Assembly (NCBI GenBank): GCA_002708385.1
Contig: PANM01000013.1
Location: 87,359 to 151,358, forward strand
DNA: 64,000 nt
Direction of reading: 5' to 3'
From: Methanobacteriota archaeon
GTDB lineage: Archaea; Thermoplasmatota; Poseidoniia; Poseidoniales; Thalassarchaeaceae
The translations under genes and the position numbers were made by a program. Shown here piece by piece: positions 6,939 to 46,665 of the stretch (within the stretch, counting starts at the first letter, position 1; each line of letters begins with the position of its first letter). Below the pieces are notes generated by a model that worked only from the letters and a program-made list of their open reading frames with translations, was not told the origin of the DNA and searched no databases.

Positions 6939-8462
6939 TCACCCAAAAATTTCGTGCGGATCAACCAACAACATCGAATTTGCTAGTGATTGACATTCCT
7001 GACTCATTACTCTATCTCCTTCGAATGGTTCAACATATTTACGAACCCATTTTTTCAAATTAACTACGCCATTTCCGGGTTGAATCGATAATCTTTCTAG
7101 TGATTCTATTGAACAAACCAATTCGTTAGCAATAACTTGAGATAGTAATGTTGTTGATTTTAGAGACCGAAATGTTCCTGTGGCCCCCATTGATACATGA
7201 TCTTCCTTACCCATGCTAACAGGAACATTAGACGTAGTTACTGGGTTCGACAAAAGATGTAATTCTGCTATGCAGGCCGCAGCGACATATTGTACAATCA
7301 TATATCCGCTTTCCAATCCTTCATCAATAGCTAAGAAAGCCGATTGGCCACCCCAATTAGGGTCAAGGACTTGGTTAATTCTACGCTCCGCAATTGATGC
7401 TAGTTCGTGGCACGCAACCGCTATAGAATCACTAGCGAGGGCTAAGTTTTGTCCATGGAAATTACCACCACTGATTATTTCTGAACCATTTTTTCCATAG
7501 AATACTAATGGGTTATCTGTAGCGCTATTGATTTCTATTTTTAGTAACCTTCGAGTCTCAATAGCTATGTCAATTACAGGACCATGGACCTGTGGCACAC
7601 ATCTGAAACAATATGCGTCTTGTACTCTATCACAATCTTCGTGGGATAGTTTAACTTGTGAGTTATGCAAGAATCCAGCGATTCTTGATGCAGATATCAG
7701 TTGTCCTCTCTGAGGCCTATTGTTGTGAATTCGTGGGTCAAAAGGGGAATGAGAACCCCTAATGGCTTCTAATGAACATGCTGCGGAAGCATCTGCGAAC
7801 AGTAATAATCGTTCTAAATTTAACAACGTTAGAGAAAGGTATGTGCACATTTGGCTTGTTCCATTAATCAGTGATAGCCCTTCTTTTGCTTGTAACTTTA
7901 CAGGCTTCAGATTATTTTCGATAAGAATCTCTGAGGTAGGATATTCCTTCCAGCCCGATTTACCCCTAACCAAACAACTTCCTTCCCCAATTAGTCCTAA
8001 GGCCATATGTGACAACGGGGCTAGGTCCCCAGAAGCACCTAATGAGCCAATTCTAGGTATAATTGGGGCGATACCTAGGTTAATCATTTCAATTAGTAAT
8101 TTCACAACCTCTGGTCGAATTCCTGATACGCCTTTTGCTAGTGAATTTGCACGATATACCATCATTAAAAGTACATGTTCAGGGTCCATGAGCTCACCAA
8201 CTCCACAAGCATGACTACGTATCAGGTTAGTCTGTAACTTGGCTAATTCAGTCTCATCAATTTTGACTGAAGACATCGCCCCAAATCCAGTATTTATTCC
8301 ATAAACTACTTGATCAGAATTTACAATCTCCTCCACTACCTGTCTAGATTGCGACATTCTATCGATAGCTTGGTCGCACAGAACTAAAGTGGATTGACCA
8401 ATTGATGCAGAATATGCAGACTCGATAGTGAGTGTTTGACCATCGATTAGAACAGTGGCCAT
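6939..8462 (-). CDS. hutH: Histidine ammonia-lyase
   Basis: The MIO-forming Ala-Ser-Gly triad sits in GASGDLAPLSHMA, at about 507 aa with ammonia-lyase family conservation throughout. Confidence 0.9.
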   Translation of the reverse strand: MATVLIDGQTLTIESAYSASIGQSTLVLCDQAIDRMSQSRQVVEEIVNSDQVVYGINTGFGAMSSVKIDETELAKLQTNLIRSHACGVGELMDPEHVLLMMVYRANSLAKGVSGIRPEVVKLLIEMINLGIAPIIPRIGSLGASGDLAPLSHMALGLIGEGSCLVRGKSGWKEYPTSEILIENNLKPVKLQAKEGLSLINGTSQMCTYLSLTLLNLERLLLFADASAACSLEAIRGSHSPFDPRIHNNRPQRGQLISASRIAGFLHNSQVKLSHEDCDRVQDAYCFRCVPQVHGPVIDIAIETRRLLKIEINSATDNPLVFYGKNGSEIISGGNFHGQNLALASDSIAVACHELASIAERRINQVLDPNWGGQSAFLAIDEGLESGYMIVQYVAAACIAELHLLSNPVTTSNVPVSMGKEDHVSMGATGTFRSLKSTTLLSQVIANELVCSIESLERLSIQPGNGVVNLKKWVRKYVEPFEGDRVMSQECQSLANSMLLVDPHEIFG

Positions 8463-8483
8463 GATGTTGCCGAGTCAGGACCA

Positions 8484-10499
8484 TCAAATAGACTCATCGT
8501 GCATATCAAATAGTCTATCCAATAGATTCCGATCAACTAAATTTGGAATAGTTATGCCAAGTTTATCGTCTAAATCCATGGCCCTTTCAACTGTCCAAAT
8601 GGCCCCCTCATTTCTAGCCCATGAACGCCTAGCTAATCCATTCAAAACATCCCAACTTATCATTGAATTAATTCTACCTTGAGAATCATCTGAACCATCT
8701 ATCAATAATCCAAATCCGCCGTTAATTACTTCCCCCCAGCCTACACCTCCCCCATTGTGTAAACTCGTCCATGTTGCTCCTCTAAACGAATCACCCACAA
8801 AATTCTGAATAGCCATATCGGCAGTGAACATGGAGCCATCCCGAATATTTGCAGTTTCACGATAGGGACTATCGGTACCCCCCACATCGTGGTGATCTCG
8901 GCCAAGAACTATCGGGGCTGAAATTAATCCCTCGCTGATTGCTCTGTTAAAAGCGCTAGCAATCATTGACCGCCCTTTTTCATCAGCATACAAAATTCGG
9001 GCTTTACTACCCACAACCAAATTGTGTTTTTCCGCCTCTAAAATCCAACGAATATTATCCTGATATTGTGTCTCAATTTCATTAGGACAATTACTGGCTA
9101 ATTCTCTAAGTACTTCTACCGCTATTTCATCTGTAATACTGAGATCTTCATCAGAACCTGAAGTGCATACCCATCTGAAAGGACCGAATCCATAATCAAA
9201 GCACATAGGGCCCATGATGTCCTCAACATATGATGGATACTTGAAGGAACCATCTTCTTCAACAATATCTGCATTAGCCCTGCTTGATTCTAGAAGGAAG
9301 GCATTACCATAATCCCAAAAAACTGTACCTCTACTACATAATCGATTAATGCTTTTTACATGTCTTCTAAGAGTACTATGAACCGCTTCTTTGAACTTTT
9401 CAGGATAATTAATCAACAGAGATTTAGATTCAGTTAATGTATAATCTACAGGCATATAACCACCCAGCCACGGATTATGTAAACTGGTTTGATCACTCGC
9501 TAGGTGTGGTGTAAATTCTATTTCTACCATATATTCCAATAAGTCAACTATATTGCCTACATATCCTAATGATACTGCTTCTTTCGATGTGACAGCGGTT
9601 TTAGCCCTCAATATTAAATCATCCAAGTTGTCATAAATCTCGGTCAACCAACCTTGGGAATACCTTTTCTCGGCTACAATAGGGTCAATTTCCGCAATGA
9701 TACATACGGCACCAGCAATAACGGCAGCTTTAGCCTGCGCTCCACTCATTCCACCTAGGCCAGAAGTTACGTAGACAATCCCGCCTAAATCTGAATCGTT
9801 TGGGACATTGAGGTATTTTCTAGCCGCATTCAAGATTGTAATTGTAGTTCCGTGGACAATCCCCTGTGGGCCAATGTACATGTATGAGCCAGCTGTCATT
9901 TGTCCATATTGCGACACCCCTAATGCGTTCATTTTCTCATAATCTTCTTGTGAAGAATAATTAGGAATAACCATTCCATTTGTTACAACCACCATAGGTG
10001 CATCTTTGTTTGATGGAAATAGCCCTAATGGATGGCCAGAATACATAACAAGAGTTTGATTTTCTGCCATTGTTGACAGATATTTCATAGTTAGAAGGTA
10101 TTGAGCCCAATTTTGGAAAACAGATCCATTCGTACCGTATGTGACTAGTTCATGGGGAAATTGTGCGACTTTTGGGTCTAGATTATTTTGTATCATCAAC
10201 ATAATTGAAGCCGCGGAAAGTGATTTTGCATTGTAATGGTGAATTGGTCTTGCATGGATCTCATATTCAGGCCTAAATCGATGCATGTATATGTGACCAT
10301 AATCATTCAACTCATTGAGAAATTCTTTCGATAATTTATCATGCCAATTATCTGGAAAATATCGTAGAGCATTTTCTATTGCAAGTTTTTTCTCAGAGTT
10401 TGACAATACTTGCGGCCTCTTTGGTGCGTGAGGAACTGAATCATCTATTGTGGCTGCAGGAGGTAAATCTCGTGGAATCCCAATTGTGTAATCTATCAT
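8484..10499 (-). CDS. hutU: Urocanate hydratase, long form (671 aa) with about 90-aa N-terminal extension
   Basis: Urocanase core motifs NNLDPKVAQFP, YGQMTAGSYMYIGPQGIVHGT, GLGGMSGAQ, GRDHHDVGGTDSPYRETA and SLHNGGGVGWG are present. N-terminal residues 20-90 (VPHAP...ALRYFP...YGHIYMHRF) go beyond the bacterial enzyme, which is about 557 aa. Confidence 0.9.
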   Translation of the reverse strand: MIDYTIGIPRDLPPAATIDDSVPHAPKRPQVLSNSEKKLAIENALRYFPDNWHDKLSKEFLNELNDYGHIYMHRFRPEYEIHARPIHHYNAKSLSAASIMLMIQNNLDPKVAQFPHELVTYGTNGSVFQNWAQYLLTMKYLSTMAENQTLVMYSGHPLGLFPSNKDAPMVVVTNGMVIPNYSSQEDYEKMNALGVSQYGQMTAGSYMYIGPQGIVHGTTITILNAARKYLNVPNDSDLGGIVYVTSGLGGMSGAQAKAAVIAGAVCIIAEIDPIVAEKRYSQGWLTEIYDNLDDLILRAKTAVTSKEAVSLGYVGNIVDLLEYMVEIEFTPHLASDQTSLHNPWLGGYMPVDYTLTESKSLLINYPEKFKEAVHSTLRRHVKSINRLCSRGTVFWDYGNAFLLESSRANADIVEEDGSFKYPSYVEDIMGPMCFDYGFGPFRWVCTSGSDEDLSITDEIAVEVLRELASNCPNEIETQYQDNIRWILEAEKHNLVVGSKARILYADEKGRSMIASAFNRAISEGLISAPIVLGRDHHDVGGTDSPYRETANIRDGSMFTADMAIQNFVGDSFRGATWTSLHNGGGVGWGEVINGGFGLLIDGSDDSQGRINSMISWDVLNGLARRSWARNEGAIWTVERAMDLDDKLGITIPNLVDRNLLDRLFDMHDESI

Positions 10500-10502
10500 T
10501 CA

Positions 10503-11126
10503 CTACCACCCTAGACGGTTTGTAAATATACTATTGATTTCAATTATTGTATTGTTGCATTGATTCAATTTGTGAACGCATTTCTCATCTAAATCTGACT
10601 TTGCATCCCCTTCCAGATATTGTGTATTGATTTTCACGTTGTAAGCTGCTATTTTAGCAGACGCCAATGCCAATTCAGAAGCCGAAGCTAGGTCGGTTAG
10701 TGCATTTACATTACAATTTGGAACTAGTGTAGAAATAGTTTTCAAAAGAATACAAGCATAATCTAAGATCTCTAAGGGGGCTGATGCCGCACCAATTGTA
10801 GCCTCCGTTATCGCTTTTTTCTTGGTCATTGCATCAGTATCCTTGGGTAATCTATATGCATTCATAACTTCATCAAAGGCCAATGCATCATTTTGCGCTA
10901 ACCGGATTGAAAATCCTAAATTAGCATCTTCGGATTCTATAATTTTATTTGCAATGTCGTGGCCATCTATCCATTTTTCACTTTTAACAGTTAATCTGGC
11001 AACCATTATCGTGAGTGCATGAGCATGGGCTAATGTGAGGCCAGCCACAGAACCCCCACCAGGAGTGGGCGCCGAAGAAGAAATTGAATCTAAGACATCC
11101 CTGTAACCATCATTCAATGTGATCAC
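10503..11126 (-). CDS. Formiminotetrahydrofolate cyclodeaminase (stand-alone FTCD C-domain)
   Basis: The cyclodeaminase signature APTPGGGSVAGLTLAHAHAL is present. It overlaps the upstream transferase gene by 17 nt. Confidence 0.75.
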   Translation of the reverse strand: MITLNDGYRDVLDSISSSAPTPGGGSVAGLTLAHAHALTIMVARLTVKSEKWIDGHDIANKIIESEDANLGFSIRLAQNDALAFDEVMNAYRLPKDTDAMTKKKAITEATIGAASAPLEILDYACILLKTISTLVPNCNVNALTDLASASELALASAKIAAYNVKINTQYLEGDAKSDLDEKCVHKLNQCNNTIIEINSIFTNRLGW

Positions 11127-12156
11127 CTCTAATTGCCCACTCGATTATATTCGAATTAGGGTCAAAATCTTCTAGTTTGTTTAACATCAATCCGTTAATG
11201 GCATAATCTACTAATTCCTGTTCACTAGCGTCCGGATTATTTCCATAATGCTGCCCGGCGGCAAGAATTGCTTCCAGTGGGACTAATCCAACCAATTCAG
11301 AAGAAATTGCCTGTAACCCTAATTTGGATGCTTCAATTCTTATAGCATCCGTAACCTGATGTAAGCCTGTCGAGTTAAAATCTAGTAAATTCATGGATAC
11401 TTGGGCAGTTTTGTCGTCATACATCCATCCTGCTGCCTGCAGATTAGAAAATATCCCGGGTTGCCTCAATGGTTTACCATTTGCATCTTTAATGGTACTT
11501 CCTTCTTCATCTTTAATAAGGTGACCACTAGTTCTAATTTTTCCAGCGATTTGATTAGCTTGTGATTTGTTGTCGGTATTCAAATTCACATTGTATGCTA
11601 TCAATAAATTTCGTCCACCAGTAGCTGTAACTCCCATTTTAGGAGTGAATTGACTTGGTCCATAATCAGGTTTCCATTCTGGTTGGGATAGTTTATCTTG
11701 AAATCCTTCATATTCCCCTCTTCGTATATCCGGTAATCTAACTCTTTGAGTTAATTTGGCAGATTCGGCATAGAGATAAATGGGTAGGTTATGTTTGGTA
11801 GAAATCGCCTTACCATAACGATGAGACAAGTCTACACAATCATCCATAGATACGTTACTTATGGGTATGAATGGAACCACATCAACTGCTCCCATTCTAG
11901 CGTGTTCCCCAGAATGCATTGTCATATCGATTAATTCTAATGCTATTGATGTACATTGAACCACAGTATCAAGTACAGATTCGGGATCACCTACCATGGT
12001 TACTACAGTTCGATTGAAATCCACTCCCATATCAATATCTAATAGCGTGACTCCTTCATTATCGAGTATTGGTTGAATTATTCTGTCGATTATTGTTTTA
12101 TCCCTACCCTCACTAAAGTTCGGTACACATTCAACCAAACGGGACGTCATCAGCAT
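11110..12156 (-). CDS. ftcD: Glutamate formimidoyltransferase (FTCD N-domain homolog)
   Basis: The hallmark N-terminus VECVPNFSEGRD is present, at about 348 aa. Confidence 0.85.
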   Translation of the reverse strand: MLMTSRLVECVPNFSEGRDKTIIDRIIQPILDNEGVTLLDIDMGVDFNRTVVTMVGDPESVLDTVVQCTSIALELIDMTMHSGEHARMGAVDVVPFIPISNVSMDDCVDLSHRYGKAISTKHNLPIYLYAESAKLTQRVRLPDIRRGEYEGFQDKLSQPEWKPDYGPSQFTPKMGVTATGGRNLLIAYNVNLNTDNKSQANQIAGKIRTSGHLIKDEEGSTIKDANGKPLRQPGIFSNLQAAGWMYDDKTAQVSMNLLDFNSTGLHQVTDAIRIEASKLGLQAISSELVGLVPLEAILAAGQHYGNNPDASEQELVDYAINGLMLNKLEDFDPNSNIIEWAIRGDHIE

Positions 12157-18075: not shown

Positions 18076-18876
18076 TCATTCTGAGCTTTCTTGCTCGTCA
18101 AGGAATCCTTTAGATTCAGTCCAATCACTAACGCTCTCTAAGCGCTTTAGCCATCCCTTGGCATTAGTTGATTTGGTGGTTTTAACTAACCATACACCAC
18201 CGAATATTGTATCCCATAGCCCTAAGTCGCCTCGAAGCCTGTACATGATATAATCAATTAACGGAGGAAACAAAAGTAAAACACCGACGGCGGAGAATAT
18301 CTTCCCAGTTGTAGAAGATGGAATTTCACTCGTCAATGTAAAAATTGTAATTATACCTATAATGACTAGTGGGAATGTTAAGCCTTTGATAGTTAGGAAA
18401 ATTGCGAATGGTGGCTCACCTCTGCTGTTGACGTATTGAGTTCTGCTGACCCAATTACCCACTGTACGCTTACGAGCGTAATTCGGCATAAAACCCAGAT
18501 TGAAACAAATTAGAACTATCCCCAGTATTACAAAGATGGTTGGATTAATATTTGCTCCCCAAGCCGAAACCGCCAGTAGTGGTATGGTCCAACCATAACT
18601 GATTATGAAGTCGAAAAATCTTCTAACGAATTTTTGACCTGTCGTTGCCATTTCATAGCCATCAGGAAGTTCCTTTTTGACTCTAGGCGTTCGAGGTTTC
18701 TTTTCTTTAACGGGTTTAGTTTTCTTTGGTTTGGCAGCCGTTTTGGCTTTGGCAGGTTTAGGTTTTGCAGCTTTGGCAGGTTTAGCCTTGGCTACAGCTT
18801 TAGTCGGTTGAATGCCTTTTGTTTCAGGTGGTTTATTCTCAACCTCAACATTACCGGCTTTTTCTAATAATCCCAA
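18076..18876 (-). CDS. RDD-family-like membrane protein with Lys/Ala/Pro-rich N-terminal tail
   Basis: A KPAKAAKPKPAKAK tail is followed by FVRRFFDFIISY and multi-TM segments reminiscent of the RDD family. Confidence 0.45.
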   Translation of the reverse strand: MGLLEKAGNVEVENKPPETKGIQPTKAVAKAKPAKAAKPKPAKAKTAAKPKKTKPVKEKKPRTPRVKKELPDGYEMATTGQKFVRRFFDFIISYGWTIPLLAVSAWGANINPTIFVILGIVLICFNLGFMPNYARKRTVGNWVSRTQYVNSRGEPPFAIFLTIKGLTFPLVIIGIITIFTLTSEIPSSTTGKIFSAVGVLLLFPPLIDYIMYRLRGDLGLWDTIFGGVWLVKTTKSTNAKGWLKRLESVSDWTESKGFLDEQESSE

Positions 18877-18897: not shown

Positions 18898-19755
18898 CTA
18901 ATCTGAGTATACCTGACCCATCTGTTGGAACATATTGAATCCTTCTGATTGCACGAACTCATTTATCTTGTCGTCGGGTAAGTCCCCTAGAACCCTGTTT
19001 ATCATAGTGAAGAACTCTTTTCGAGTGGATTCATCCATGGATTCAGGATTTGCACCAACTTTCTGGAATAATTCAAAGTCAACAGACTGAATGAATGAGT
19101 TAACAAATTCATCTGGCATATTACCTAATAGATCGTTAACTATAGAAAAGAATTCTGGGAATAAATCCTGACTTGTTTTGTCTCTTTCGATAGATTCCTG
19201 GTTTTCTGAAATATCTTCAGTTTCCGATGTGGTTTTTGGTACAGCCTTAGCTTTTGCAACAGGTTTTGCTTTCGCGACCGGCTTAGCCTGCGGAATCTCA
19301 TCTGTATCGGATTCTGGTGATGAAATGAGTTCAACAGTTGGTTTAATGTCGCGCATTTCTTTTTGTTGCTTCTTCCTCAAGACAATAATTTCTCTATCTA
19401 ATTCAGAACCAAATCTATCTGTAAATCTATCCAATAGAGTTCCAACCTCCCCAGTGGCGATTCGGTCTATATGACCATACATTTGGTCTCTTTTATCAGC
19501 AGATAATGCAGGATTTTCCATCTTACGTTTTTGCCAAGCACTTTGGAAATCATCTGGTTCATCACTTTCTACTTGTTCCAATTCTACCGGAGTCTCACTA
19601 GGAATATCGATACCCGGAGGTGGAGGAGGGGATGAAACATCATTTTCATTAGAATCTCCTTGATTAGAATCCGATATTGGCGGTGGAATAGGTAGTCCAG
19701 GAGGTGGCGGTGGAAGCGGAAGTTCATCCCAGTTTTCTTCATCGCCGTCAGACAA
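18898..19755 (-). CDS. Hypothetical acidic protein with poly-Pro tracts and an internal duplicated about 35-aa motif
   Basis: PPPPPGLPIPPP and PPPPPGIDIP tracts, a KPVAKAKPVAKAK stretch, and two C-terminal repeats (F..V/I..LG.MPD.F/I.N.F.QS..F..FQ..G). Confidence 0.4.
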   Translation of the reverse strand: MSDGDEENWDELPLPPPPPGLPIPPPISDSNQGDSNENDVSSPPPPPGIDIPSETPVELEQVESDEPDDFQSAWQKRKMENPALSADKRDQMYGHIDRIATGEVGTLLDRFTDRFGSELDREIIVLRKKQQKEMRDIKPTVELISSPESDTDEIPQAKPVAKAKPVAKAKAVPKTTSETEDISENQESIERDKTSQDLFPEFFSIVNDLLGNMPDEFVNSFIQSVDFELFQKVGANPESMDESTRKEFFTMINRVLGDLPDDKINEFVQSEGFNMFQQMGQVYSD

Positions 19756-21085: not shown

Positions 21086-21280
21086 TCAATCTAGATCTAA
21101 ATCACCGACTTCTTTACCTTCAGTCGATGGGGATGCCCCAGTTTTCTCTATGTATGCCTCTATACAAAGATAATCGCCGTCCAATACAATTGCTTCGCCA
21201 AATGTCAATGCTTTACCTGTAACTGCACAAACGGGGCCTAATTGTCCTGATGCAGTAGATAGTTTGGAAGCGTCTGGCAT
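21086..21280 (-). CDS. Possible small protein (about 64 aa, MPDASKLSTASGQLGPVCAVTGK...)
   Basis: Open frame in the 347-nt priS/mqnD divergent spacer. No recognisable motif; it may be non-coding. Confidence 0.15.
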   Translation of the reverse strand: MPDASKLSTASGQLGPVCAVTGKALTFGEAIVLDGDYLCIEAYIEKTGASPSTEGKEVGDLDLD

Positions 21281-21372
21281 GAATATGGGCAGTTGTAATT
21301 CCTTCTTGATACTTACCTTTGTTCTGATTGAATAATACAAGCGGTTTATTACTAGTTTGCCACGGGCCAAAC

Positions 21373-22230
21373 ATGGACACAGATTCACAGCATATTCGCA
21401 TAGGCCATTCGCCAGACCCAGATGACGCATTCATGTTCTATGCTCTCACCACAGGTGTATTGGATACTCCCGGAAGGGAATATGAGCATGTATTGTTAGA
21501 TATCCAGACATTGAACGAAAAAGCATTGAATAAAGAATACGAAATTTCTGCTGTGAGCATTCATTCATTCCCAAAAATTATCGAAAATTACGCCTTGATG
21601 AATTGTGGAGCGTCTATGGGTGAAGGATACGGTCCTATGTTGATTGCAAATCAGGAATTTACTGTAGATGAAGCCAGATCCAAAACCATAGCAATTCCTG
21701 GTCTTGACACATCTGCTTACCTAGCACTAAGATTGGCATGGGGAGATGTCAACGTAGAGGTGGTTCCATTCGATGAAATTCTCCCCTCCGTTGTTGCCGG
21801 AAGGTTTGATGTGGGACTAATTATTCATGAAGGACAACTTACTTGGAAGGATGAGGGTGTTTATCTCATTCAGGATATGGGTGTATTGTGGAATGAAAAG
21901 ACAGGATTGCCATTACCACTGGGGGGAAATGTTGTACGACGTGATCTTGGAGAGGATTTATGCAAAATGTTATCTGATGATGTTAAACGATCAATCAAAC
22001 ATTCTATAGAAAACCCAGATTTAGCCTTAGAATTCGCAAAAAAATGGGGTCGAGGAATAGACGATGATACAAATCGAGAATTTGTACAAATGTATGTCAA
22101 CGATCGGACTTTGGACTATGGTGAATCGGGGAGAAAAGCAGTTAGATTATTTCTTTCAGAAGGACAAAAAATTGGCATGGTAGACCCTAATCTAGACACA
22201 GATGGTATCGAATTCATCGGGGCTGAATAA
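21373..22230 (+). CDS. mqnD: MqnA/MqnD-family enzyme, probably 1,4-dihydroxy-6-naphthoate synthase (MqnD)
   Basis: The N-terminus IRIGHSPDPDDAFMFYAL resembles the MqnD GxSPCPND motif. I trimmed the start to the ATG at 21373. Confidence 0.6.
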   Translation: MDTDSQHIRIGHSPDPDDAFMFYALTTGVLDTPGREYEHVLLDIQTLNEKALNKEYEISAVSIHSFPKIIENYALMNCGASMGEGYGPMLIANQEFTVDEARSKTIAIPGLDTSAYLALRLAWGDVNVEVVPFDEILPSVVAGRFDVGLIIHEGQLTWKDEGVYLIQDMGVLWNEKTGLPLPLGGNVVRRDLGEDLCKMLSDDVKRSIKHSIENPDLALEFAKKWGRGIDDDTNREFVQMYVNDRTLDYGESGRKAVRLFLSEGQKIGMVDPNLDTDGIEFIGAE

Positions 22231-22710
22231 ATGACGGAAAACATACCAGAAAGATCCGAGTTTGACTCCGTTGATCCAGCACCTCCAAGTGATGGAAATA
22301 ACGTCTCGAATCTACGAAATACTCTTTGTGATGAAAATGAAAAAATGTTTCAAAGAATGCGGGCCTTATTTGCCCTTAGGAATATTGGTGGGAAAGAATC
22401 TGTTGATGCTCTGGCTGCCGCATACAGGTCTAAATCGGCATTGTTGAAACATGAGATAGCATATGTGATGGGCCAAATGCAGGATACTAATGCCGTACCT
22501 CACCTGATTGATAGATTGGAAGATAAAGATGAGGATATTATGGTGAGACATGAAGCTGCGGAAGCATTGGGTGCAATTGGCGATAGAACTGCTTTGTCTG
22601 TCCTAGAAAAATTCGTAAATGATGATGAAGTAGTCATCGCAGAATCATGTGAAGTAGCTCTAGATTTGTTGGAATGGGTAGCTAGTAAGAGATTGGATTA
22701 TTCGGATTAA
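22231..22710 (+). CDS. Half-size deoxyhypusine hydroxylase-like HEAT-repeat protein (two His-Glu motifs)
   Basis: 159 aa with ALFALRNIGG, SALLKHEIAYVMGQMQD and IMVRHEAAEALGAIGD matching the diiron-ligand HE repeats of one lobe of eukaryotic DOHH. Its ATG directly follows the mqnD stop. Confidence 0.55.
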   Translation: MTENIPERSEFDSVDPAPPSDGNNVSNLRNTLCDENEKMFQRMRALFALRNIGGKESVDALAAAYRSKSALLKHEIAYVMGQMQDTNAVPHLIDRLEDKDEDIMVRHEAAEALGAIGDRTALSVLEKFVNDDEVVIAESCEVALDLLEWVASKRLDYSD

Positions 22711-23507
22711 ATCTCTAAGTTAGCCCAAGTTGGTTCTTCAGATATCTGACAAACCTCCTTTAGGAATTTTGAAAGACCTTTATGAGATTCTTCATCTAAT
22801 GTATTTCTTACCTCGTTATCGAAGTAATGCTGCATTCGTATTTTATCAATACCTGTAGATGAAGATGATTGCTCAATTACCAATGATTTTTTTGTTGGAA
22901 TGGTATTAAATTCTTCATAATTCTGTAATAAATCAGCATGTATAGCCGATATTTGGCTGATCGGTGCATCTTTTCGGCAAGCAAATACACCAAAGACCAT
23001 AGGTAATTTGGTAACTTTGGTCCATTCCCCCCCTAAATCTAAACAAACTAATTCAGGATAATTTTCAGCTGCATTTAATGCCCTGTCTCCGATTAGTAAC
23101 GCCCCATCGCATGTGGCTAACATAGAATCTAAGTCAGGGCCGGTTTCAATACATTTTGGATCTAGTCCTTTGTGTTCAAGTAGCCATCGTAAAAGGACCT
23201 TAGAAGTGGAAGAATCTGAAGGTAATGCTATATCTCGCATATCGGTTAAATCTCTACTTCCAAAAAGAATAACCGAACCAACAGCACCCATAGCAACTAT
23301 TCCAAGATTAGGTAGTAACATCAATTCATCTTGGTGTTTAGCATAATCAGCTGCCGGTATGGGTGCCGTTAGACAATCTCTCCTTAGCACGTGACCTGTT
23401 AACCACGCAGGAGGCGCTGATAGGATTGTCCATTTAGAATTTAAACCATGGAAAAGGGGGTCGCAATTAGTAAAAGCAACTCTTCCAATTACATTCGTCC
23501 AAGCCAT
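22707..23507 (-). CDS. mqnA: MqnA/MqnD-family enzyme, probably chorismate dehydratase (MqnA)
   Basis: Periplasmic-binding-protein-like fold family. The N-terminus IGRVAFTNCDPLFHGL resembles the MqnA GRISYLNxxPLxYGL pattern. Confidence 0.55.
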   Translation of the reverse strand: MAWTNVIGRVAFTNCDPLFHGLNSKWTILSAPPAWLTGHVLRRDCLTAPIPAADYAKHQDELMLLPNLGIVAMGAVGSVILFGSRDLTDMRDIALPSDSSTSKVLLRWLLEHKGLDPKCIETGPDLDSMLATCDGALLIGDRALNAAENYPELVCLDLGGEWTKVTKLPMVFGVFACRKDAPISQISAIHADLLQNYEEFNTIPTKKSLVIEQSSSSTGIDKIRMQHYFDNEVRNTLDEESHKGLSKFLKEVCQISEEPTWANLEI

Positions 23508-23518
23508 AATCTGACACC

Positions 23519-24745
23519 TTATACTAATAGCGGAAGAGAAGTGGATTTAGTAACTTGAACATTTTCTATGTTAAATTTGGAATAAACTGTGTTTCTTCTT
23601 ACTGCTATTTGCCCTGTTTCATGTATTAATCGGATTAAATCCTGATTACTCGAATCTAAAGCAGTTGTACTACCTGCTGAATGCATAATTTCTTCGTGAC
23701 CTACTGTTCCATCTATATCGTCGGCGCCTGAGAGAAGAGCTAATTGTGCAACATCGTCTCCAATATTCATTCTGTATGCTTTAATGTGCGGTATGTTATC
23801 TAGCATCAATCTAGAGATTGCAATCATCCTTAATATTTCATTGGAGCTAGCTAGTTGCGCTTCTGGCAAACGACTAAAATCTGGTAAAAATGGGTAGGGG
23901 ACAAAACATTGGAAGCCATTTGTTTCATCTTGTAATTGTCGAAGTAAATCTAAATGTACGATTCTATCTTGAATGGTTTCAATCGTACCAAATAACATAG
24001 TGCAATTAGTCGGTATGCCTAACGTATGTGCCTCCTTATGAATATTCAAATATTCATTACTGGATTCCTTGCCTCTACAAATTCTATCTCTAATCTTGTC
24101 GACAAGAATTTCCGCCCCACCACCAGGAATGGAATCCAATCCGGAATTCTTGAGGCGTTGTAATGTTTCTTTAACAGTTAAGTTAGACCTTTTTGATAGG
24201 TGTTTGATTTCAACTGCAGTAAGGGATTTAATATGTATATGCGGAAATTTCGTTTTGGCACTTCTGTAGAGGTCTTCATAATGAGTAATATCCCATACCG
24301 GATGTAGACCACCAACAGAGTGTACTTCATCAATACTAGAAGAAAAACGTTCGATTCTGTGAAGATATTCGTCTATGCTCAATTCATACGCTTCATCATG
24401 GCGTGGGCCTTTTCTAAATGCACAAAATCGACATGCTAAAACACAAATGTTTGTGGTATTTACGTGTAGATTTTGATTAAAATAAATTTGATTATCAAAT
24501 CTAGATTGTTTGACCATGTTAGCCAGTGTAAATAGCGAATTAATGTTGGTAACAGAATACAGTGCCTTCCCCAAATTTGGTTTAATCCGGCCTTCTTCAA
24601 TTAACGAATTTAAGGCTCTCAATAGTGTTGGATTATTAGAAATAGAGGTAGGAATTGGCATAATGCTAAGTCGATTTCTCCAATTCAAATCCCCTCCGAG
24701 GGGAGCAGGATATGACTCTTGTGATGTATCCACAACACCCGCCAA
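23519..24745 (-). CDS. Radical-SAM enzyme of the MqnC/MqnE (CofH-like) family, futalosine pathway
   Basis: The CxxxCxxC cluster is CVLACRFCAF, and family conservation is CofH/MqnC/MqnE-like. An alternative ATG lies at 24659-24661. I cannot tell MqnC from MqnE by eye. Confidence 0.65.
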   Translation of the reverse strand: MAGVVDTSQESYPAPLGGDLNWRNRLSIMPIPTSISNNPTLLRALNSLIEEGRIKPNLGKALYSVTNINSLFTLANMVKQSRFDNQIYFNQNLHVNTTNICVLACRFCAFRKGPRHDEAYELSIDEYLHRIERFSSSIDEVHSVGGLHPVWDITHYEDLYRSAKTKFPHIHIKSLTAVEIKHLSKRSNLTVKETLQRLKNSGLDSIPGGGAEILVDKIRDRICRGKESSNEYLNIHKEAHTLGIPTNCTMLFGTIETIQDRIVHLDLLRQLQDETNGFQCFVPYPFLPDFSRLPEAQLASSNEILRMIAISRLMLDNIPHIKAYRMNIGDDVAQLALLSGADDIDGTVGHEEIMHSAGSTTALDSSNQDLIRLIHETGQIAVRRNTVYSKFNIENVQVTKSTSLPLLV

Positions 24746-38867: not shown

Positions 38868-38955
38868 ATAAGAGCGTGACGGACTCACCAAAGGTGTGGT
38901 GTATAGTGGCCAATCTTCACCAACATTCAAGCAGCAGTCGCGTCGGGTAGCAATC

Positions 38956-40227
38956 ATGGCCTTTAGGGACCTATTGGTAGGAGCTGTGGAAGTTGATGAC
39001 CCAATTAGTGTCAATCACGGAATGCTGAATCATTCTGAATTGATAAATCACAAGGCTGTAGTATTCAATAATATTCCAGAATCAGATGGCCTTAGGTCGG
39101 CAGTAAATGTCCTCGCTAGAGATCGTTTGTGCGAAATTTTCAATATTAGTCCAGGCGAATTAATCGATGTTCTTGCATGGGCTATGGCTAATCCTTCAGA
39201 ACCCCAATTAGTCGATTCAAATAATGCCCCTGTACTAGAAAATACTCAAGAATGTGTAGACCTCACAAAATTACCAATTCCATGGCACTACCCAGAAGAC
39301 AGAGGGCGATATCAATCCGCTTCTGTCATTATTGCTGAATATCAAGGTGTTAGAAATATGTCATTCCATCGGCAATTTCTTCGAGACGAAAATCATTGCG
39401 TGTCTAGATTTGTGCCAAGGCATCTAAGGACCATGACCGATAAAGCTAGGGCAAATGGAGAAGAAATTGACATTGCTGTAATTAATGGGCCGGACGCTAC
39501 TGTATTACTAGCCGCCGCAATGTCATTTACTCATGACTTAGATGAATTAACTGTTGCTGCAGCGTTGCACGAGAAATTACATGGTAAGCCACTGGAATTA
39601 GTCACATTATCCAATGGTATTGAGGTGCCAGCTGATTCGGAATATGCCATGGAAGCCAAAATTACATTGGCAGACGATGATGAAGGACCATATGTAGACA
39701 TCACTGGAACAGTAGACGATGTTAGGCAAGAACCAGTAATCCAATACGATGCAGTTCATCATAGAAACCAGGCTGTTTTCCACGCCCTTATTCCAGCAGA
39801 GGTTGAACATCGAACATTAATGGGTCTACCTAGGGCACCAACAATCAAAGCAGCGGTCAACGAAGTTGTGCCCTGTTCAGATGTATACATGACAGATGGC
39901 GGAAGCGGATGGTTGTCTGCAGTTGTTGCAATAGAACCCAAGAAAGACGGCGATGGCATGAAGGCAATCAAAGCTGCTCTACATGGTCATGGTTCTATGA
40001 AGCAGGTCACTGTTGTTGATACTGATATTGATTGTTCTAATCCGGTTCGGGTAGAATGGGCATTGATGACAAGATGGCAACCAGACAAAGATACTTTGAT
40101 TTTATCAAATCAAAAAGGCTCAAGTTTAGATCCATCTCGGGGAGAAGACGGGTTGACAAGTAAGATTGGAATCGATGCAACTCTACCTCCTGGAATAGAT
40201 CGTAAACCGTATCAAAGCGTATTATGA
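38956..40227 (+). CDS. UbiD-family (prFMN-dependent) decarboxylase
   Basis: An MAFRDL N-terminus like UbiD, with family conservation throughout. I trimmed the start to the ATG at 38956. Confidence 0.7.
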
Positions 40228-43833: not shown

Positions 43834-44070
43834 TTACTCTACTGATTTTAATGCGTCGTGAGCAGCGGCAAGTCCTCTCATTACGGTATTCCAACGTGCT
43901 CTCATATCTACGAATAACGGCTCGAATTCTTCAACAATAATCATATCTTGGTTAAGACTAACTTCCGCTTCTGTAGTTAATGCAGCAAACAAAGAATTAG
44001 CATATTTGCTGGTGACTCGCAAAGATAAGTTGAGTGGTTCACTCTTCTTCATCGCTGACATTTTCTTCAC
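43834..44070 (-). CDS. Possible KEOPS subunit Pcc1
   Basis: About 78 aa, ending in the helix MRARWNTVMRGLAAAHDAL, which resembles the Pcc1 RAxxNSxLRWL pattern. It overlaps the 3' end of the L37ae ORF by 32 nt. Confidence 0.35.
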   Translation of the reverse strand: MKKMSAMKKSEPLNLSLRVTSKYANSLFAALTTEAEVSLNQDMIIVEEFEPLFVDMRARWNTVMRGLAAAHDALKSVE

Positions 44071-44413
44071 CAGCTAACTTGCGTTCGTATTCCAAGGCTG
44101 CTTGTTGAGCAATCACAGTCATGTCAGTGGCTGTGGCACCTTCCATGCCACGCCTGATTACTCGGGTATTGGCATCGGTAGCACGAGTAAATGGTTCCCA
44201 AACACCGCCTGAAAATTTATGACCGCATTTTTTGCATTCCCATATACCTGCTACTTGACGCGTTACCTTTTGGTAATGGCATACCGGACATGTATAATTT
44301 CGAGACTTCTTCTTTAGCGCTGCCCCTGCCCTTCTTCGTACACTTACACCATATCGTGAACCATACTTTGCAGTAGCACCGAGTTTTTGAGTTCTCTTTG
44401 CCATTTCACTCAC
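44039..44413 (-). CDS. rpl37ae: Ribosomal protein eL43 (L37ae) with acidic C-terminal extension
   Basis: Zinc ribbon CPVCHYQKV...CKKCGHKF is present. It is about 30 aa longer than usual, ending in EENVSDEEE. Confidence 0.8.
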   Translation of the reverse strand: MSEMAKRTQKLGATAKYGSRYGVSVRRRAGAALKKKSRNYTCPVCHYQKVTRQVAGIWECKKCGHKFSGGVWEPFTRATDANTRVIRRGMEGATATDMTVIAQQAALEYERKLAGEENVSDEEE

Positions 44414-45200
44414 CTTCTAATTTTTCGTTCACTAAATCTCGGAGTTCGGCACATCTTGAGCGGGCCTCATCCATGATGTCAGCGAATTCGGCGGCCGTGA
44501 AGATTCCCTTTAGACCCTTCTGCAATGAATGGACGTGATCATCATCACCCAAGGTTATGTGTATCCTTTCATCACCACCGAGTTCTTCTCTCTTGTCGGC
44601 ATCATATACAAATCTGCCACCGACCTTATGGTAAGAACACATTATAGGAGTCTTGGATACCTCTAATGGCATATCTTCTCCAACTTCAAATCTCTCAGCA
44701 GGGACAGTTGCACTGCGAAGAGCAGCAATTGCTGCAAGTCCAAATGCATCGAATAAATTACCATCATCCGATACTGCAAATACGTCAAGGATAACCTGCC
44801 AAGCTTTTTCTCCCGGAATGATGCACAAATCTTCGGTATTAATACAACCTGATTCCCTAATTCCCCTGTCCACAACTCGACCAAGTTCGATCGATTCGGC
44901 ACTAGGCGGTCCTGCTTCCCAATTTCTACCGGCTACCGGTCTGACTTCAGCACTGCACATGAGACCGCCTTCATTAGGTCGGTCGGGGTAAGGTGTCATG
45001 ATCTGAAATTTGACGCCAGCTAATACAATAGTGTCCCCCATTCTTACTCTAGCTGAACCCTCTGCACGTGGTAGACAATTGATTTCTAATTCTACATCTC
45101 GTCCTTCAAATCTCTGACGACCGTCATGCCTCTTGTCTTCGAGTGCTAATTCTGCTAGATGAGAGCGTAGTAATTTAGGCACTAATGGTATGCTCATCAT
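44406..45200 (-). CDS. rrp42: Exosome complex component Rrp42
   Basis: RNase PH-like fold at 264 aa, in the conserved order after Rrp41. Confidence 0.8.
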   Translation of the reverse strand: MMSIPLVPKLLRSHLAELALEDKRHDGRQRFEGRDVELEINCLPRAEGSARVRMGDTIVLAGVKFQIMTPYPDRPNEGGLMCSAEVRPVAGRNWEAGPPSAESIELGRVVDRGIRESGCINTEDLCIIPGEKAWQVILDVFAVSDDGNLFDAFGLAAIAALRSATVPAERFEVGEDMPLEVSKTPIMCSYHKVGGRFVYDADKREELGGDERIHITLGDDDHVHSLQKGLKGIFTAAEFADIMDEARSRCAELRDLVNEKLEGE

Positions 45201-45913
45201 TCATCGCCTCCCTTTAGCGCTCTAACCATCTCTTCATGTATCACCTTAGCAGCTTCCATATTGTAGTCCCATGCTTCTTGGAATTGTTCAGGAGATAAGT
45301 CTCCATCCATCTGTAAGAAAACTAATTCGCCAGTATTCGGCAAAATACCCATTGGTAGATCTGCTTCACCATAATTGTCCTCTTCTTTGTTGAGGTCACA
45401 AACTACTATGTCGTGAACTTTTCCACTAGCAACTGAAACCACCATATCAGTCATCGGAATTCCTGCATGAGCAAGGGCGACGGATGCTGCAGTTATTCCC
45501 GCACATCGTGTACCAGCTTCAGCACAAATAATCTCTATTTCAACTCGGATTTTACTTCTTGGATAAAGTTCCGTAAGTACAACACTCTCCAATGCTTCTG
45601 CAGTTACTTTCGAAATTTCTCTACTTCGGCGATTAAATCCAGGTCGGATTCTGTCAGTGGTTGAAAACGGCGCCATATTATACCGGACGTCTAAGACGGC
45701 CCTATCTTGCCGTTGGATCTTTCTCGGGTGGGCTTCCATTGGCCCGTATACTGCAGCAATGCAGTCATTCAGTCCCCAGCGAATTCTTGCTGAACCGTCG
45801 GCTACTGGAATAACTCCTGTTTCTATTGATACCGGACGAACCTCATCTTTTGTTCTACCATCTAGGCGTATTCCGTTATCATCTATACACTGTACATCTC
45901 CATATCCGCCCAT
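45197..45913 (-). CDS. rrp41: Exosome complex exonuclease Rrp41 (RNase PH family)
   Basis: RLDGRTKDEVRP, a phosphate-binding arginine motif, and GTRCAGITAASVAL. Confidence 0.85.
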   Translation of the reverse strand: MGGYGDVQCIDDNGIRLDGRTKDEVRPVSIETGVIPVADGSARIRWGLNDCIAAVYGPMEAHPRKIQRQDRAVLDVRYNMAPFSTTDRIRPGFNRRSREISKVTAEALESVVLTELYPRSKIRVEIEIICAEAGTRCAGITAASVALAHAGIPMTDMVVSVASGKVHDIVVCDLNKEEDNYGEADLPMGILPNTGELVFLQMDGDLSPEQFQEAWDYNMEAAKVIHEEMVRALKGGDE

Positions 45914-46629
45914 CAGGCATCACCTCCAAATTCTTCTACCTTAGCTTCGGTTAGTAAAGCGTTTAATCGATCTCTGGCATTAATGATACCATCTAGGTCA
46001 CCATCAATCCAAACGCGACCATTGTCACCAGCAACTACTCTACATTCTGTATCTTCCTTGAGTTGGCGTAGATTATTTCCACCTCGGCCGATTAGTCTAC
46101 CGAGTAAGTGTGGATCAATTTCTTCAACGCTTCCAGAGCGAATTGCGCGCAGACCCATGCCTTTCATCGTCACAACGCTAGAATGATTTTCTTCTACTTC
46201 TTGAACGCGGCATAGAATAGCATCTCCAATATCCAGAACCTTTCTTATTCCACCGAATTCAGCCTTAGAAGGACCGAGACTCATTGGTAAAATAGCGTTG
46301 AAAGGTGCTCCGATATCGATGAACCAGATATTACTGGTACAACCTTCGATATATCCTATCACCAAATCGCTAGGCCGGGGCACATAGGATGTGCGCCGTG
46401 GCTCTATCGAGACGGTACCGCCCCGATTGTTCATTCTTCCTTGCTTCAAAGCACGAAGTCGGCCGTTAATGGCCAGGACACCGTGTCCTGCTTCGTACTC
46501 CCCAGAATCGCCTAGGTCGTCCCCAGGGGCGACAAGCAGGGGTGCTTGTCGGGATCTACGCGGTCCGTCCGCGCCATTGTCTCCACTCATGTTATCGAGC
46601 CGCGCGACCGACCCACCATTCATAACCAT
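45913..46629 (-). CDS. rrp4: Exosome RNA-binding subunit Rrp4 (N-terminal domain, S1, KH)
   Basis: The N-domain VAPGDDLG is followed by an S1 domain and the KH GXXG motif LIGRGGNNLRQL. The first about 85 codons are unusually GC-rich. Confidence 0.8.
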   Translation of the reverse strand: MVMNGGSVARLDNMSGDNGADGPRRSRQAPLLVAPGDDLGDSGEYEAGHGVLAINGRLRALKQGRMNNRGGTVSIEPRRTSYVPRPSDLVIGYIEGCTSNIWFIDIGAPFNAILPMSLGPSKAEFGGIRKVLDIGDAILCRVQEVEENHSSVVTMKGMGLRAIRSGSVEEIDPHLLGRLIGRGGNNLRQLKEDTECRVVAGDNGRVWIDGDLDGIINARDRLNALLTEAKVEEFGGDA

Positions 46630-46665
46630 ATATGCTCACACCTACGGTGTGTCTAAAGATGAAAA

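What the first reader, a model, noticed from the sequence alone, without database searches (positions are those of the whole stretch)
22231..22710. Single-lobe (half-size) deoxyhypusine hydroxylase homolog translationally coupled to mqnD
The 159-aa HEAT-repeat protein carries exactly two His-Glu motifs, KHEIAYVMGQ and RHEAAEALGAIG. Flanking DOHH-like segments include ALFALRNIGG, VDPAPP and ESCEVALDLLEW. It looks like one half of the pseudo-symmetric eukaryotic diiron DOHH, which has four HE motifs in two lobes. A homodimer could rebuild the diiron site. The enzyme that hydroxylates deoxyhypusine on aIF5A in archaea has not been identified, so this is a candidate. Alternatively, its ATG immediately follows the mqnD stop, which hints at a hydroxylation step in a modified-quinone pathway.
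Basis: partly seen in the sequence, partly recalled or inferred. Interest (0 to 1): 0.7.

Follow-up and report, generated by a model that had tools for sequence, protein, structure and literature searches.

The report
Half-size deoxyhypusine hydroxylase in marine archaea
Marine Group II archaea carry a strongly conserved gene for one half of the two-lobed iron enzyme that finishes the hypusine modification of translation factor 5A in eukaryotes. Reviews say this enzyme has no archaeal counterpart, so a pair of these halves is a directly testable candidate for it.

Summary
Window 22231-22710 (+) encodes a 159-aa protein of four HEAT hairpins with exactly two His-Glu motifs, and its ATG directly follows the TAA of mqnD.

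It is not a generic PBS-lyase HEAT protein. Its best solved relative is human deoxyhypusine hydroxylase (DOHH, 4d4z), E 8e-73. It aligns to both lobes of that enzyme at about 45-50% identity.

It keeps the iron ligands of one lobe (H74, H107, E108), the substrate-contact residues (E75, G81), and all 23 residues conserved in both eukaryotic lobes.

The organism is Marine Group II (Ca. Poseidoniales). The gene sits in one syntenic slot in all 80 species genomes shown. It is the most conserved of 12 local genes (dN/dS 0.026). No second lobe or paralog was seen.

The core is equidistant from N and C lobes, but both flanks are C-lobe-like, so its origin is unresolved.

The most likely mechanism is a homodimer that rebuilds the diiron site and hydroxylates deoxyhypusine on aIF5A. 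This is inferred; my only dimer-like model was unusable.

The mqn adjacency reflects order-wide synteny, and one lineage keeps the gene without mqnD.

I rate it a new variant of a known kind. IMG already auto-labels it, and I found no paper on it.

The parts
22231..22710 (+). Single-lobe DOHH homolog, 159 aa: disordered N-terminal tail followed by four HEAT hairpins (8 helices)
   Evidence: ORF. PDB best hit is human DOHH at E 8.3e-73. AF2 model pLDDT 83.7 with 8 helices. Foldseek best match 4d4z, E 1e-9, TMq 0.69-0.75.
22267..22287 (+). SVDPAPP motif (residues 13-19). It equals the inter-lobe linker motif of eukaryotic DOHH, here at the N terminus of a protein that has nothing to link.
   Evidence: Aligned to human 'SVDPAPP'. 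Present in 143 of 144 MGII orthologs. pLDDT below 50 in the monomer model.
22450..22455 (+). His74-Glu75, first HE motif. It is equivalent to human H56-E57 and H207-E208 (Fe ligand His, substrate-contact Glu).
   Evidence: Alignments. Residue roles from PMC9117371. Invariant in all lobes and all MGII orthologs.
22471..22473 (+). Gly81, equivalent to the conserved Gly of human DOHH implicated in deoxyhypusine binding (aligns with G214)
   Evidence: Invariant column. Role from PMC9117371.
22549..22554 (+). His107-Glu108, second HE motif. It is equivalent to human H89-E90 and H240-E241 (both Fe ligands).
   Evidence: Roles from PMC9117371.
22684..22707 (+). C-terminal tail (SKRLDYSD; 'NSDSFEYS' in the divergent ortholog P0212), matching the C-terminal tail of eukaryotic DOHH (FxYAD)
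   Evidence: Compared by eye with the sequences and the alignment.
21328..22230 (+). mqnD (futalosine-pathway enzyme). Its stop abuts the DOHH-half ATG. Gene callers start it at 21373 (285 aa).
   Evidence: Pfam VitK2_biosynth 4.3e-67. PDB MqnD 3a3u/2czl 4.8e-53. Stop-to-start spacing is -11 to +13 nt in 71 MGII loci.
22707..23507 (-). mqnA (chorismate dehydratase), convergent. Its stop codon overlaps the DOHH-half stop (TTAA, 4 nt).
   Evidence: Pfam 5.3e-48. PDB chorismate dehydratase 7ahr 1.1e-19. Sequence.
23519..24745 (-). MqnE/MqnC-type radical SAM enzyme
   Evidence: NCBIfam MqnE 384 bits and MqnC 344 bits, both below their cut-offs; CofH-family subfamily model passes.

Best explanation
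The gene encodes a one-lobe member of the deoxyhypusine hydroxylase (DOHH) family. Each 159-aa chain folds into four HEAT hairpins and offers two His and one Glu (H74, H107, E108), which is enough to bind one iron. It also offers the Glu and Gly (E75, G81) that contact the deoxyhypusine side chain in the human enzyme. I propose that two identical chains pair about a two-fold axis with their concave faces together. That would recreate the diiron centre which eukaryotic DOHH builds between its two covalently linked, pseudo-symmetric lobes. The conserved N-terminal SVDPAPP arm may dock on the partner subunit as the inter-lobe linker does in eukaryotes. The dimer would bind O2 as a peroxo-diiron(III) species and hydroxylate C2 of the deoxyhypusine residue made on aIF5A by the archaeal deoxyhypusine synthase. 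This would give Marine Group II archaea true hypusine. The gene is co-transcribed with, and probably translationally coupled to, mqnD, but this looks like conserved gene order rather than shared function.

Shown here: homology, fold, residue conservation, single copy at one locus, and strong purifying selection. Inferred: dimerisation, iron binding, substrate and activity.
For: DOHH is by far the closest solved relative, and both of its lobes align.

The closest proteins among 1.84 billion representatives are 280-350-aa two-lobe proteins, all with four HE motifs, at 41-51% identity. The five for which a source gives a name are eukaryotic or labelled DOHH: Geosiphon (hypothetical protein), Trichinella deoxyhypusine hydroxylase, and IMG 'deoxyhypusine monooxygenase'. 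Giant generic HEAT arrays score only by summing repeats and have essentially no HE motifs: 1 VRHEAAxAL match in 26 arrays over 1000 aa.

The half keeps 23 of 23 residues conserved in both lobes. It also keeps 4 of 5 N-lobe-only and 10 of 13 C-lobe-only conserved residues. Eukaryotic lobes carry only about 35% of the other lobe's signature. This is what a subunit that must play both roles would look like.

HMMs of N lobes and of C lobes score it equally (167.3 versus 167.0 bits). Every eukaryotic lobe prefers its own HMM.

The HE pair is kept in 144 of 144 orthologs.

The AF2 monomer (pLDDT 83.7) has 8 helices, and its best fold match is 4d4z.

The gene sits in the same slot in 80 of 80 MGII species genomes. 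The most divergent half-size cluster (61% identity) is an ortholog in that slot, not a paralog, so a homo-oligomer is needed to obtain four HE motifs.

It is the most conserved of 12 local genes (78.7% mean identity, against 71% for ProRS and 62-69% for MqnA, MqnE and MqnD). dN/dS is 0.026. This fits an enzyme that acts on a very conserved macromolecule.

From the literature: the iron ligands and substrate residues of human DOHH (PMC9117371). The lobes form a symmetrical dyad with the active site sandwiched between them (PMC8153317; PMC9040561). [quoted passage not shown] MGII MAGs carry a speDA-speB-DHS-homolog cluster (PMC10407285). Thermoplasma, in the same phylum, contains hypusine (PMC9599864).
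Against: There is no experimental or structural evidence for a dimer. A head-to-tail tandem of the sequence, folded without an alignment, gave pLDDT 48 and says nothing.

aIF5A and DHS are not in the window or in any of the fetched MGII loci, so there is no genomic linkage to the proposed substrate pathway. I did not confirm either gene in this genome.

The only conserved operon partner is a menaquinone gene.

Nobody has measured hypusine in MGII, which is uncultured.

Crenarchaea that do contain hypusine are reported to lack any DOHH homolog, so archaea evidently have another route. MGII could use that route too.
Confidence: 0.58

Rival explanations
1. It is an iron hydroxylase of DOHH ancestry that acts on something other than aIF5A. 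Examples would be a menaquinone or futalosine-pathway intermediate, a modified quinone, or another aminoalkylated protein. Its tight operon link with mqnD would then reflect its function.
For: The mqnD stop and this gene's start are -11 to +13 nt apart in 71 loci across the order. mqnA and mqnE/C lie immediately downstream on the other strand. There is no linkage to DHS or aIF5A.
Against: The whole 10-kb neighbourhood, including PriS, CNNM, transketolase and ProRS, is equally syntenic, so adjacency is not specific. L081 keeps a 160-aa ortholog behind its own 340-nt intergenic region, with no mqnD or mqnE/C at the locus. In 10-11 lineages a 786-888-aa gene separates it from mqnA. The residues that bind the deoxyhypusine chain in human DOHH are invariant here. 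It evolves more slowly than all three mqn genes. From my own knowledge, the known futalosine pathway needs no hydroxylation, because 1,4-dihydroxy-6-naphthoate already carries both oxygens.
Confidence: 0.15
2. It is half of a hetero-oligomer. It pairs with a different, more divergent HEAT protein encoded elsewhere in the genome, not with itself, to form the active site.
For: Eukaryotic lobes are not identical, which suggests some asymmetry is useful. 264 of the 344 genome hits could not be inspected.
Against: Each of the 80 genomes shown has one locus; the single MAG with two has two fully syntenic copies, which indicates a mixed bin. Among the 150 best of 1.84 billion representatives, the only half-size clusters are orthologs in the same slot. 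The protein carries both the N-lobe and the C-lobe signatures.
Confidence: 0.1
3. It works as a monomer with a single iron on a 2-His-1-carboxylate site, or it is a non-catalytic HEAT scaffold that merely descends from DOHH.
For: One lobe supplies exactly 2 His and 1 Glu, the classic mononuclear non-heme iron triad. Pfam and NCBIfam see only HEAT_2/HEAT_PBS, and NCBI names it 'HEAT repeat domain-containing protein'.
Against: Every catalytic and substrate residue is invariant over an order-wide radiation with dN/dS 0.026, which argues against a plain scaffold. No co-substrate-binding features of mononuclear oxygenases are evident. The family chemistry needs two irons to supply two electrons to O2 (PMC9117371).
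Confidence: 0.1
4. It is a truncated remnant or pseudogene of a two-lobe gene, or contamination from eukaryotic plankton.
For: Both flanks (SVDPAPP before the lobe, FxY tail after it) are those of the eukaryotic C-terminal lobe.
Against: Length is fixed at 156-162 aa in the 72 loci where the ORF could be delimited, and at 157-161 aa in the 120 best of 3230 database hits. The gene sits between archaeal genes in MAGs, SAGs and a 1.6-Mb contig. Its GC (0.408) equals the window's (0.411). dN/dS is 0.026.
Confidence: 0.02

Closest known systems
Eukaryotic deoxyhypusine hydroxylase (DOHH / Lia1 / nero; EC 1.14.99.29; PDB 4d4z)
   Same: Same HEAT-hairpin fold. Identity is 43-46% on average, and up to 53%, to each lobe over about 125 residues. 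HE...33...HE spacing is identical. The Fe-ligand and deoxyhypusine-contact residues are the same. The SVDPAPP motif and the C-terminal FxY tail are shared.
   Different: One lobe (159 aa, two HE motifs) instead of two fused lobes (about 300 aa, four HE motifs). It must oligomerise to make a diiron site. It is archaeal and operonic with mqnD. Its core carries both N-lobe and C-lobe signatures and sits equidistant from both.
PBS-lyase-type HEAT proteins (CpcE/CpcF, NblB, YibA, MTH187, artificial alphaRep)
   Same: Same repeat type (Pfam HEAT_2 and HEAT_PBS) and the same generic VRxxAAxALG repeat consensus.
   Different: They have no HE motifs and no iron site. NCBIfam scores are far below cut-off: NblB 42 bits against 300, CpcE 29 against 330. 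The best single-stretch score is 48 bits, against 115-129 for the DOHH lobes.
Archaeal hypusination as currently described (DHS only; hydroxylase unknown)
   Same: It would act on the same aIF5A deoxyhypusine intermediate that archaeal DHS makes (PMC5178350, PMC6105217).
   Different: Reviews state that no DOHH ortholog exists in archaea. This protein is one, but I could only show it in Marine Group II, not in the Crenarchaeota where hypusine was measured.

Membership tests
Deoxyhypusine hydroxylase (DOHH) | Sequence similarity to DOHH clearly above that to generic HEAT proteins | tested here: met
   4d4z E 8.3e-73, with 115 and 129 bits per lobe against 48 bits or less per stretch for alphaRep. 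41-51% identity to two-lobe representatives.
Deoxyhypusine hydroxylase (DOHH) | HEAT-hairpin fold, four hairpins per lobe | tested here: met
   AF2 model has 8 helices, pLDDT 83.7. Foldseek top hits are 4d4z_A and 4d4z_B, TMq 0.69-0.75.
Deoxyhypusine hydroxylase (DOHH) | Eight HEAT repeats in two lobes with four His-Glu motifs in one polypeptide | tested here: not met
   Only one lobe with two HE motifs in 159 aa. mqnD lies directly upstream and a convergent mqnA directly downstream, so there is no room for a second lobe. The requirement could be met only by a dimer.
Deoxyhypusine hydroxylase (DOHH) | Iron ligands 2 His + 1 Glu per lobe (human H56/H89/E90 and H207/H240/E241) | tested here: met
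   H74, H107 and E108 align to them and are invariant. Roles from PMC9117371.
Deoxyhypusine hydroxylase (DOHH) | Deoxyhypusine-contact residues (human E57/E208 and the conserved Gly, G214) | tested here: met
   E75 and G81 sit in invariant columns. Roles from PMC9117371.
Deoxyhypusine hydroxylase (DOHH) | Diiron centre formed between two lobes; O2-dependent hydroxylation of deoxyhypusine on IF5A | not testable with these tools
   Needs biochemistry or a multimer model with metals. The tandem AF2 attempt was uninformative.
Deoxyhypusine hydroxylase (DOHH) | Co-occurrence with DHS and IF5A in the same genome | not tested
   Neither gene is in the window or the fetched loci. Literature only: DHS in all archaeal genomes, a DHS homolog in MGII MAGs, aIF5A in all archaea.
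PBS-lyase HEAT proteins (CpcE/F, NblB) | Score above the NCBIfam equivalog cut-off | tested here: not met
   NblB 42.1 bits against 300; CpcE 28.9 against 330; CpeY 18.6 against 600.
Futalosine (mqn) pathway component | Obligatory co-occurrence with mqn genes at the locus | tested here: not met
   L081 has the gene without mqnD or mqnE/C beside it. Elsewhere the adjacency is part of region-wide synteny.

The most novel reading that the evidence does not exclude
The Marine Group II protein is a surviving pre-duplication form of DOHH. On this reading the enzyme first existed as a homodimer of one four-HEAT lobe, and the eukaryotic two-lobe enzyme arose by tandem duplication and fusion of such a gene. 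Hydroxylation of deoxyhypusine would then predate or parallel eukaryogenesis, and a 'eukaryotic signature' enzyme would have a living prokaryotic prototype.

The evidence does not exclude this. The core is equidistant from N and C lobes. It is closer than either lobe to generic HEAT outgroups: 1.58 against 1.94 and 1.82. Four-cluster quartet analysis gives a perfect star (0.33/0.34/0.33). In the same test eukaryotic C lobes group with C at 0.65 (minimum 0.50) and N lobes with N at 0.58.

The competing reading is an ancient transfer of a C-terminal half into the MGII ancestor, followed by re-symmetrisation. The C-lobe-like flanks favour that reading.
Probability: 0.25. Interest if true: 0.85.

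Novelty: new variant of a known kind. Interest (0 to 1): 0.66.

Why it matters
Papers on hypusine state that archaea have deoxyhypusine synthase but no DOHH ortholog, leaving the last step of archaeal hypusination unexplained (PMC5178350, PMC6105217, PMC8153317). Here is an unmistakable DOHH homolog in one of the most abundant archaeal groups of the surface ocean.

Its one-lobe form turns two questions into simple bench experiments. Does an archaeon make hypusine the eukaryotic way? Can the diiron site of this unusual oxygenase, cited as a case of an oxidase born from a non-enzymatic HEAT scaffold (PMC9040561), be assembled from two identical halves?

A 159-aa symmetric version would also be a convenient minimal model for the long-lived peroxo-diiron intermediate.

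It does not solve hypusination in Crenarchaeota. IMG's pipeline already attaches the DOHH label to these genes, so this is a missed connection rather than a hidden gene.

Tried and rejected
(1) Dimer geometry. I folded a head-to-tail tandem of the protein as a stand-in for a dimer. Without an alignment the model was poor (pLDDT 48, pTM 0.31) and says nothing.

(2) The AlphaFold-database fold search, meant to find other one-lobe relatives, was unavailable.

(3) Spread outside Marine Group II. The genome scan found 344 relatives in 185,579 species genomes but lists only the best 80, all MGII. The other 264 are unseen, so restriction to MGII is not proven.

(4) Origin of the half. NJ with bootstrap and four-cluster quartet analysis do not resolve whether it branches before the N/C duplication or with the C lobes.

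(5) DHS and aIF5A. Motif scans of the window plus 86 loci (1.49 Mb) and Pfam scans of 36 window ORFs found neither.

(6) Literature searches for any report of DOHH in Poseidoniales, MGII or Asgard found nothing. Park 2006 (PNAS) and Kim 2006 (JBC) are not held.

(7) Rejected readings: pseudogene or contaminant, generic PBS-lyase HEAT protein, and paralogous second half (P0212 turned out to be an ortholog).

Full report
**The observation.** Window 22231-22710 (+) is an ATG-initiated ORF of 159 codons. The preceding ORF ends with TAA at 22228-22230, so the ATG follows with no spacer. 'HE' occurs exactly twice: H74-E75 (nt 22450-22455) and H107-E108 (nt 22549-22554). The two motifs are 33 residues apart. 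The upstream ORF is MqnD (PF02621, 4.3e-67; Thermus MqnD 3a3u/2czl, 4.8e-53). The convergent downstream ORF is MqnA, chorismate dehydratase (7ahr, 1.1e-19); its stop codon overlaps this gene's stop (TTAA). Next comes an MqnE/MqnC-type radical SAM gene.

**What it is.**
- Pfam and NCBIfam see only HEAT_2/HEAT_PBS. The phycobilin-lyase and NblB models score far below their cut-offs.
- A search of all PDB sequences puts human deoxyhypusine hydroxylase (4d4z) first at E 8.3e-73. The query aligns separately to the N lobe (residues 12-138, 115 bits) and to the linker plus C lobe (144-287, 129 bits).
- The next hits are artificial alphaRep proteins. They reach their totals only by summing many repeats, with 48 bits for the best single stretch.
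- An exhaustive HMMER scan of 1.84 billion cluster representatives gives the same picture. Apart from giant HEAT arrays, the best matches are 280-350-aa proteins hit twice at 41-51% identity. All have four HE motifs in two pairs about 33 residues apart.
- Where named, these are eukaryotic or labelled DOHH: Geosiphon (hypothetical protein), Trichinella (deoxyhypusine hydroxylase), and IMG 'deoxyhypusine monooxygenase'.
- The giant arrays contain essentially no HE motifs.
- An AlphaFold2 model from 25 orthologs has mean pLDDT 83.7, above 90 through the core. It has a disordered N-terminal 24 residues and eight helices, i.e. four hairpins. Its best structural matches in the PDB are the two chains of 4d4z (E 1e-9, TM 0.69-0.75).

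**Organism and distribution.**
- The identical protein and 3230 relatives occur in marine metagenomes and MAGs named Candidatus Poseidoniales or Thalassarchaeaceae, i.e. Marine Group II. The 120 best are all 157-161 aa.
- NCBI calls them 'HEAT repeat domain-containing protein'. IMG calls several 'deoxyhypusine monooxygenase'.
- Among the 150 best representatives, only three clusters are half-size, and all three are MGII.
- A scan of one genome per species (185,579 species) with the motifs VRHEA[AG]EAL and S[AV]L[LF][KR]HE[IV][AG]Y found 344 relatives. The 80 shown (72-100% identity) are all MGII MAGs or SAGs, with genomic GC from 33 to 60%. I could not see the other 264.

**Conservation and context.**
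- All 144 full-length orthologs examined keep the HE pair. 143 keep SVDPAP, KHEIAYV.GQ and VRHEAAEALGAIG.
- Over 53 loci that contain all seven core neighbours, this protein is the most conserved of twelve genes. Its mean identity is 78.7%, against 71.3% for ProRS, about 70% for the transketolase halves, 69.4% for MqnD, 65.1% for MqnE/C, 62.4% for PriS and 61.5% for MqnA. Against the closest species, dN/dS is 0.016/0.62 = 0.026.
- Gene GC equals the genome's, 0.408 against 0.411.
- The order PriS(-), 64-aa ORF(-), MqnD(+), DOHH-half(+), MqnA(-), MqnE/C(-), transketolase(+) is kept throughout.
- The MqnD stop and the DOHH-half start lie -11 to +13 nt apart in 71 loci, most often 0, +1 or -8.
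- Three things weaken a functional reading of that adjacency. First, the whole region, including unrelated housekeeping genes, is equally syntenic. Second, 10-11 lineages have a 786-888-aa WD40/membrane gene inserted between the half and MqnA. Third, in L081 the half stands alone behind a 340-nt intergenic region next to PriS, with neither MqnD nor MqnE/C at the locus.
- The most divergent half-size cluster (P0212, 61% identity) sits in the same slot, so it is an ortholog and not a second, different half.
- The one MAG with two loci (UBA105) has two fully syntenic copies, which points to a mixed bin.

**Relation to the two eukaryotic lobes.** I cut 93 two-lobe representatives into N and C lobes and aligned them with four MGII halves.
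- The MGII core (residues 26-152) is 43% identical to N lobes and 45.5% to C lobes. N and C lobes are 37% identical to each other.
- An HMM of N lobes scores it 167.3 bits and an HMM of C lobes 167.0 bits. Every eukaryotic N lobe prefers the N model (mean +31.6 bits) and every C lobe the C model (minimum +18.3, mean +38).
- It has 23 of 23 residues conserved in both lobes, 4 of 5 conserved only in N lobes, and 10 of 13 conserved only in C lobes. Eukaryotic lobes carry about 35% of the other lobe's signature.
- By contrast, both flanks are C-lobe-like. The N-terminal EFDSVDPAPP is the inter-lobe linker motif, and the C-terminal tail (RLDYSD; NSDSFEYS in P0212) matches the eukaryotic C terminus FxYAD.
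- Rooted NJ trees and a four-cluster quartet analysis do not resolve the branching. Quartets split 0.33/0.34/0.33 among the three topologies. In the same test, eukaryotic C lobes group with C at 0.65 (minimum 0.50) and N lobes with N at 0.58.
- The half is also closer to generic HEAT outgroups than either lobe is.
- So it is not an ordinary C lobe. It either diverged near the duplication, or it is an ancient C-terminal half that has been re-symmetrised.

**Mechanism.** In human DOHH, H56, H89 and E90 of one lobe and H207, H240 and E241 of the other anchor the two irons. E57, E208 and a conserved Gly bind the deoxyhypusine chain (PMC9117371). The lobes form a symmetrical dyad with the active site between them (PMC8153317; PMC9040561). 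One MGII chain supplies exactly one such set (H74, H107, E108; E75, G81). There is a single gene per genome at one locus, and the subunit carries both lobes' signatures. The economical model is therefore a C2 homodimer that rebuilds the diiron site and hydroxylates deoxyhypusine on aIF5A. I suggest that the conserved SVDPAPP arm is a lobe-lobe contact element and not a mere linker, because it is retained where there is nothing to link. All of this is inference. The tandem-sequence model I tried as a dimer surrogate was unusable (pLDDT 48).

**The pathway around it.** Neither DHS nor aIF5A lies in the window or in the fetched MGII loci. From the literature:
- DHS homologs occur in all archaeal genomes (PMC5178350).
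- aIF5A occurs in all archaea (PMC6105217).
- MGII MAGs carry an arginine decarboxylase, agmatinase and DHS-homolog cluster (PMC10407285).
- Thermoplasma, in the same phylum, contains hypusine (PMC9599864).

From my own knowledge, MGII are aerobic surface-ocean heterotrophs, so O2 is available.

**Comparison with what is known, and novelty.** The closest family is eukaryotic DOHH. The protein passes the tests for similarity, fold, metal ligands and substrate residues. It fails the two-lobe, four-HE architecture as a single chain. Papers from 2016 to 2021 say that no DOHH ortholog has been found in archaea. Searches for hypusine or DOHH together with Poseidoniales, Marine Group II or Asgard returned nothing relevant, and a 2026 review adds nothing. 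IMG's automatic label shows that the similarity is detectable by routine pipelines. I rate it a new variant of a known kind: a one-lobe, presumably homodimeric, archaeal DOHH.

**Verdict.** The function is plausible but unproven. The quinone alternative is weak. Interest is 0.66.

Noticed in passing
L081 3508-3990 and neighbours: One MGII lineage (GC 34%) has the DOHH half directly next to divergent PriS, with no mqnD upstream and no mqnE/C downstream. Only an mqnA-like gene (46% identity) remains before transketolase. I do not know whether the futalosine genes moved or were lost.
   Followed up: partly
L021 6533-9199; L087 6542-8902: In 10-11 MGII lineages a 786-888-aa gene is inserted between the DOHH half and mqnA. 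Pfam records WD40/beta-propeller hits for the L087 product. The L021 product has hydrophobic stretches and an acidic, EF-hand-like C-terminal region (by eye, not tested).
   Followed up: partly
window 21086-21280 (-): A 64-aa ORF with no Pfam hit lies between PriS and mqnD. Gene finders call it in every contig examined, including the divergent L087 lineage. The 114-aa ORF in the mechanical list is an upstream extension of it.
   Followed up: no
window 18076-18876 (-) and 18898-19755 (-): Two hypothetical proteins are conserved across MGII at 32-65% identity. One has an AKPKPAK-rich N terminus followed by hydrophobic segments. The other is acidic and Pro-rich with repeated C-terminal motifs. 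Neither has a Pfam hit on record.
   Followed up: no
window 38896-40227 (+): A UbiD-family decarboxylase lies about 16 kb from the mqnD/A/E group. It may be the menaquinone-pathway decarboxylase, so the pathway genes are dispersed and not in one operon.
   Followed up: no
window 51301-52578 (-): TiaS (tRNA-Ile2 agmatidine synthetase) is present, so the organism uses agmatine. This is relevant to the agmatine-dependent deoxyhypusine route described in haloarchaea.
   Followed up: no
window 54830-60121 (-): A 1763-aa ORF, the largest in the window. I did not examine it.
   Followed up: no
window 6939-12156 (-): A histidine-utilisation block: histidine ammonia-lyase, urocanase, and formiminotransferase with its cyclodeaminase part as a separate ORF.
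   Followed up: no
window 44039-47373 (-): An exosome/translation superoperon segment: L37ae, two RNase PH subunits (Rrp41/42-like), Rrp4, and SBDS.
   Followed up: no
L014 and L015 (both from MAG UBA105): The same MAG contains two fully syntenic copies of the whole region, with DOHH halves at 84% and 86% identity to the window. The bin probably mixes two populations; these are unlikely to be paralogs.
   Followed up: partly
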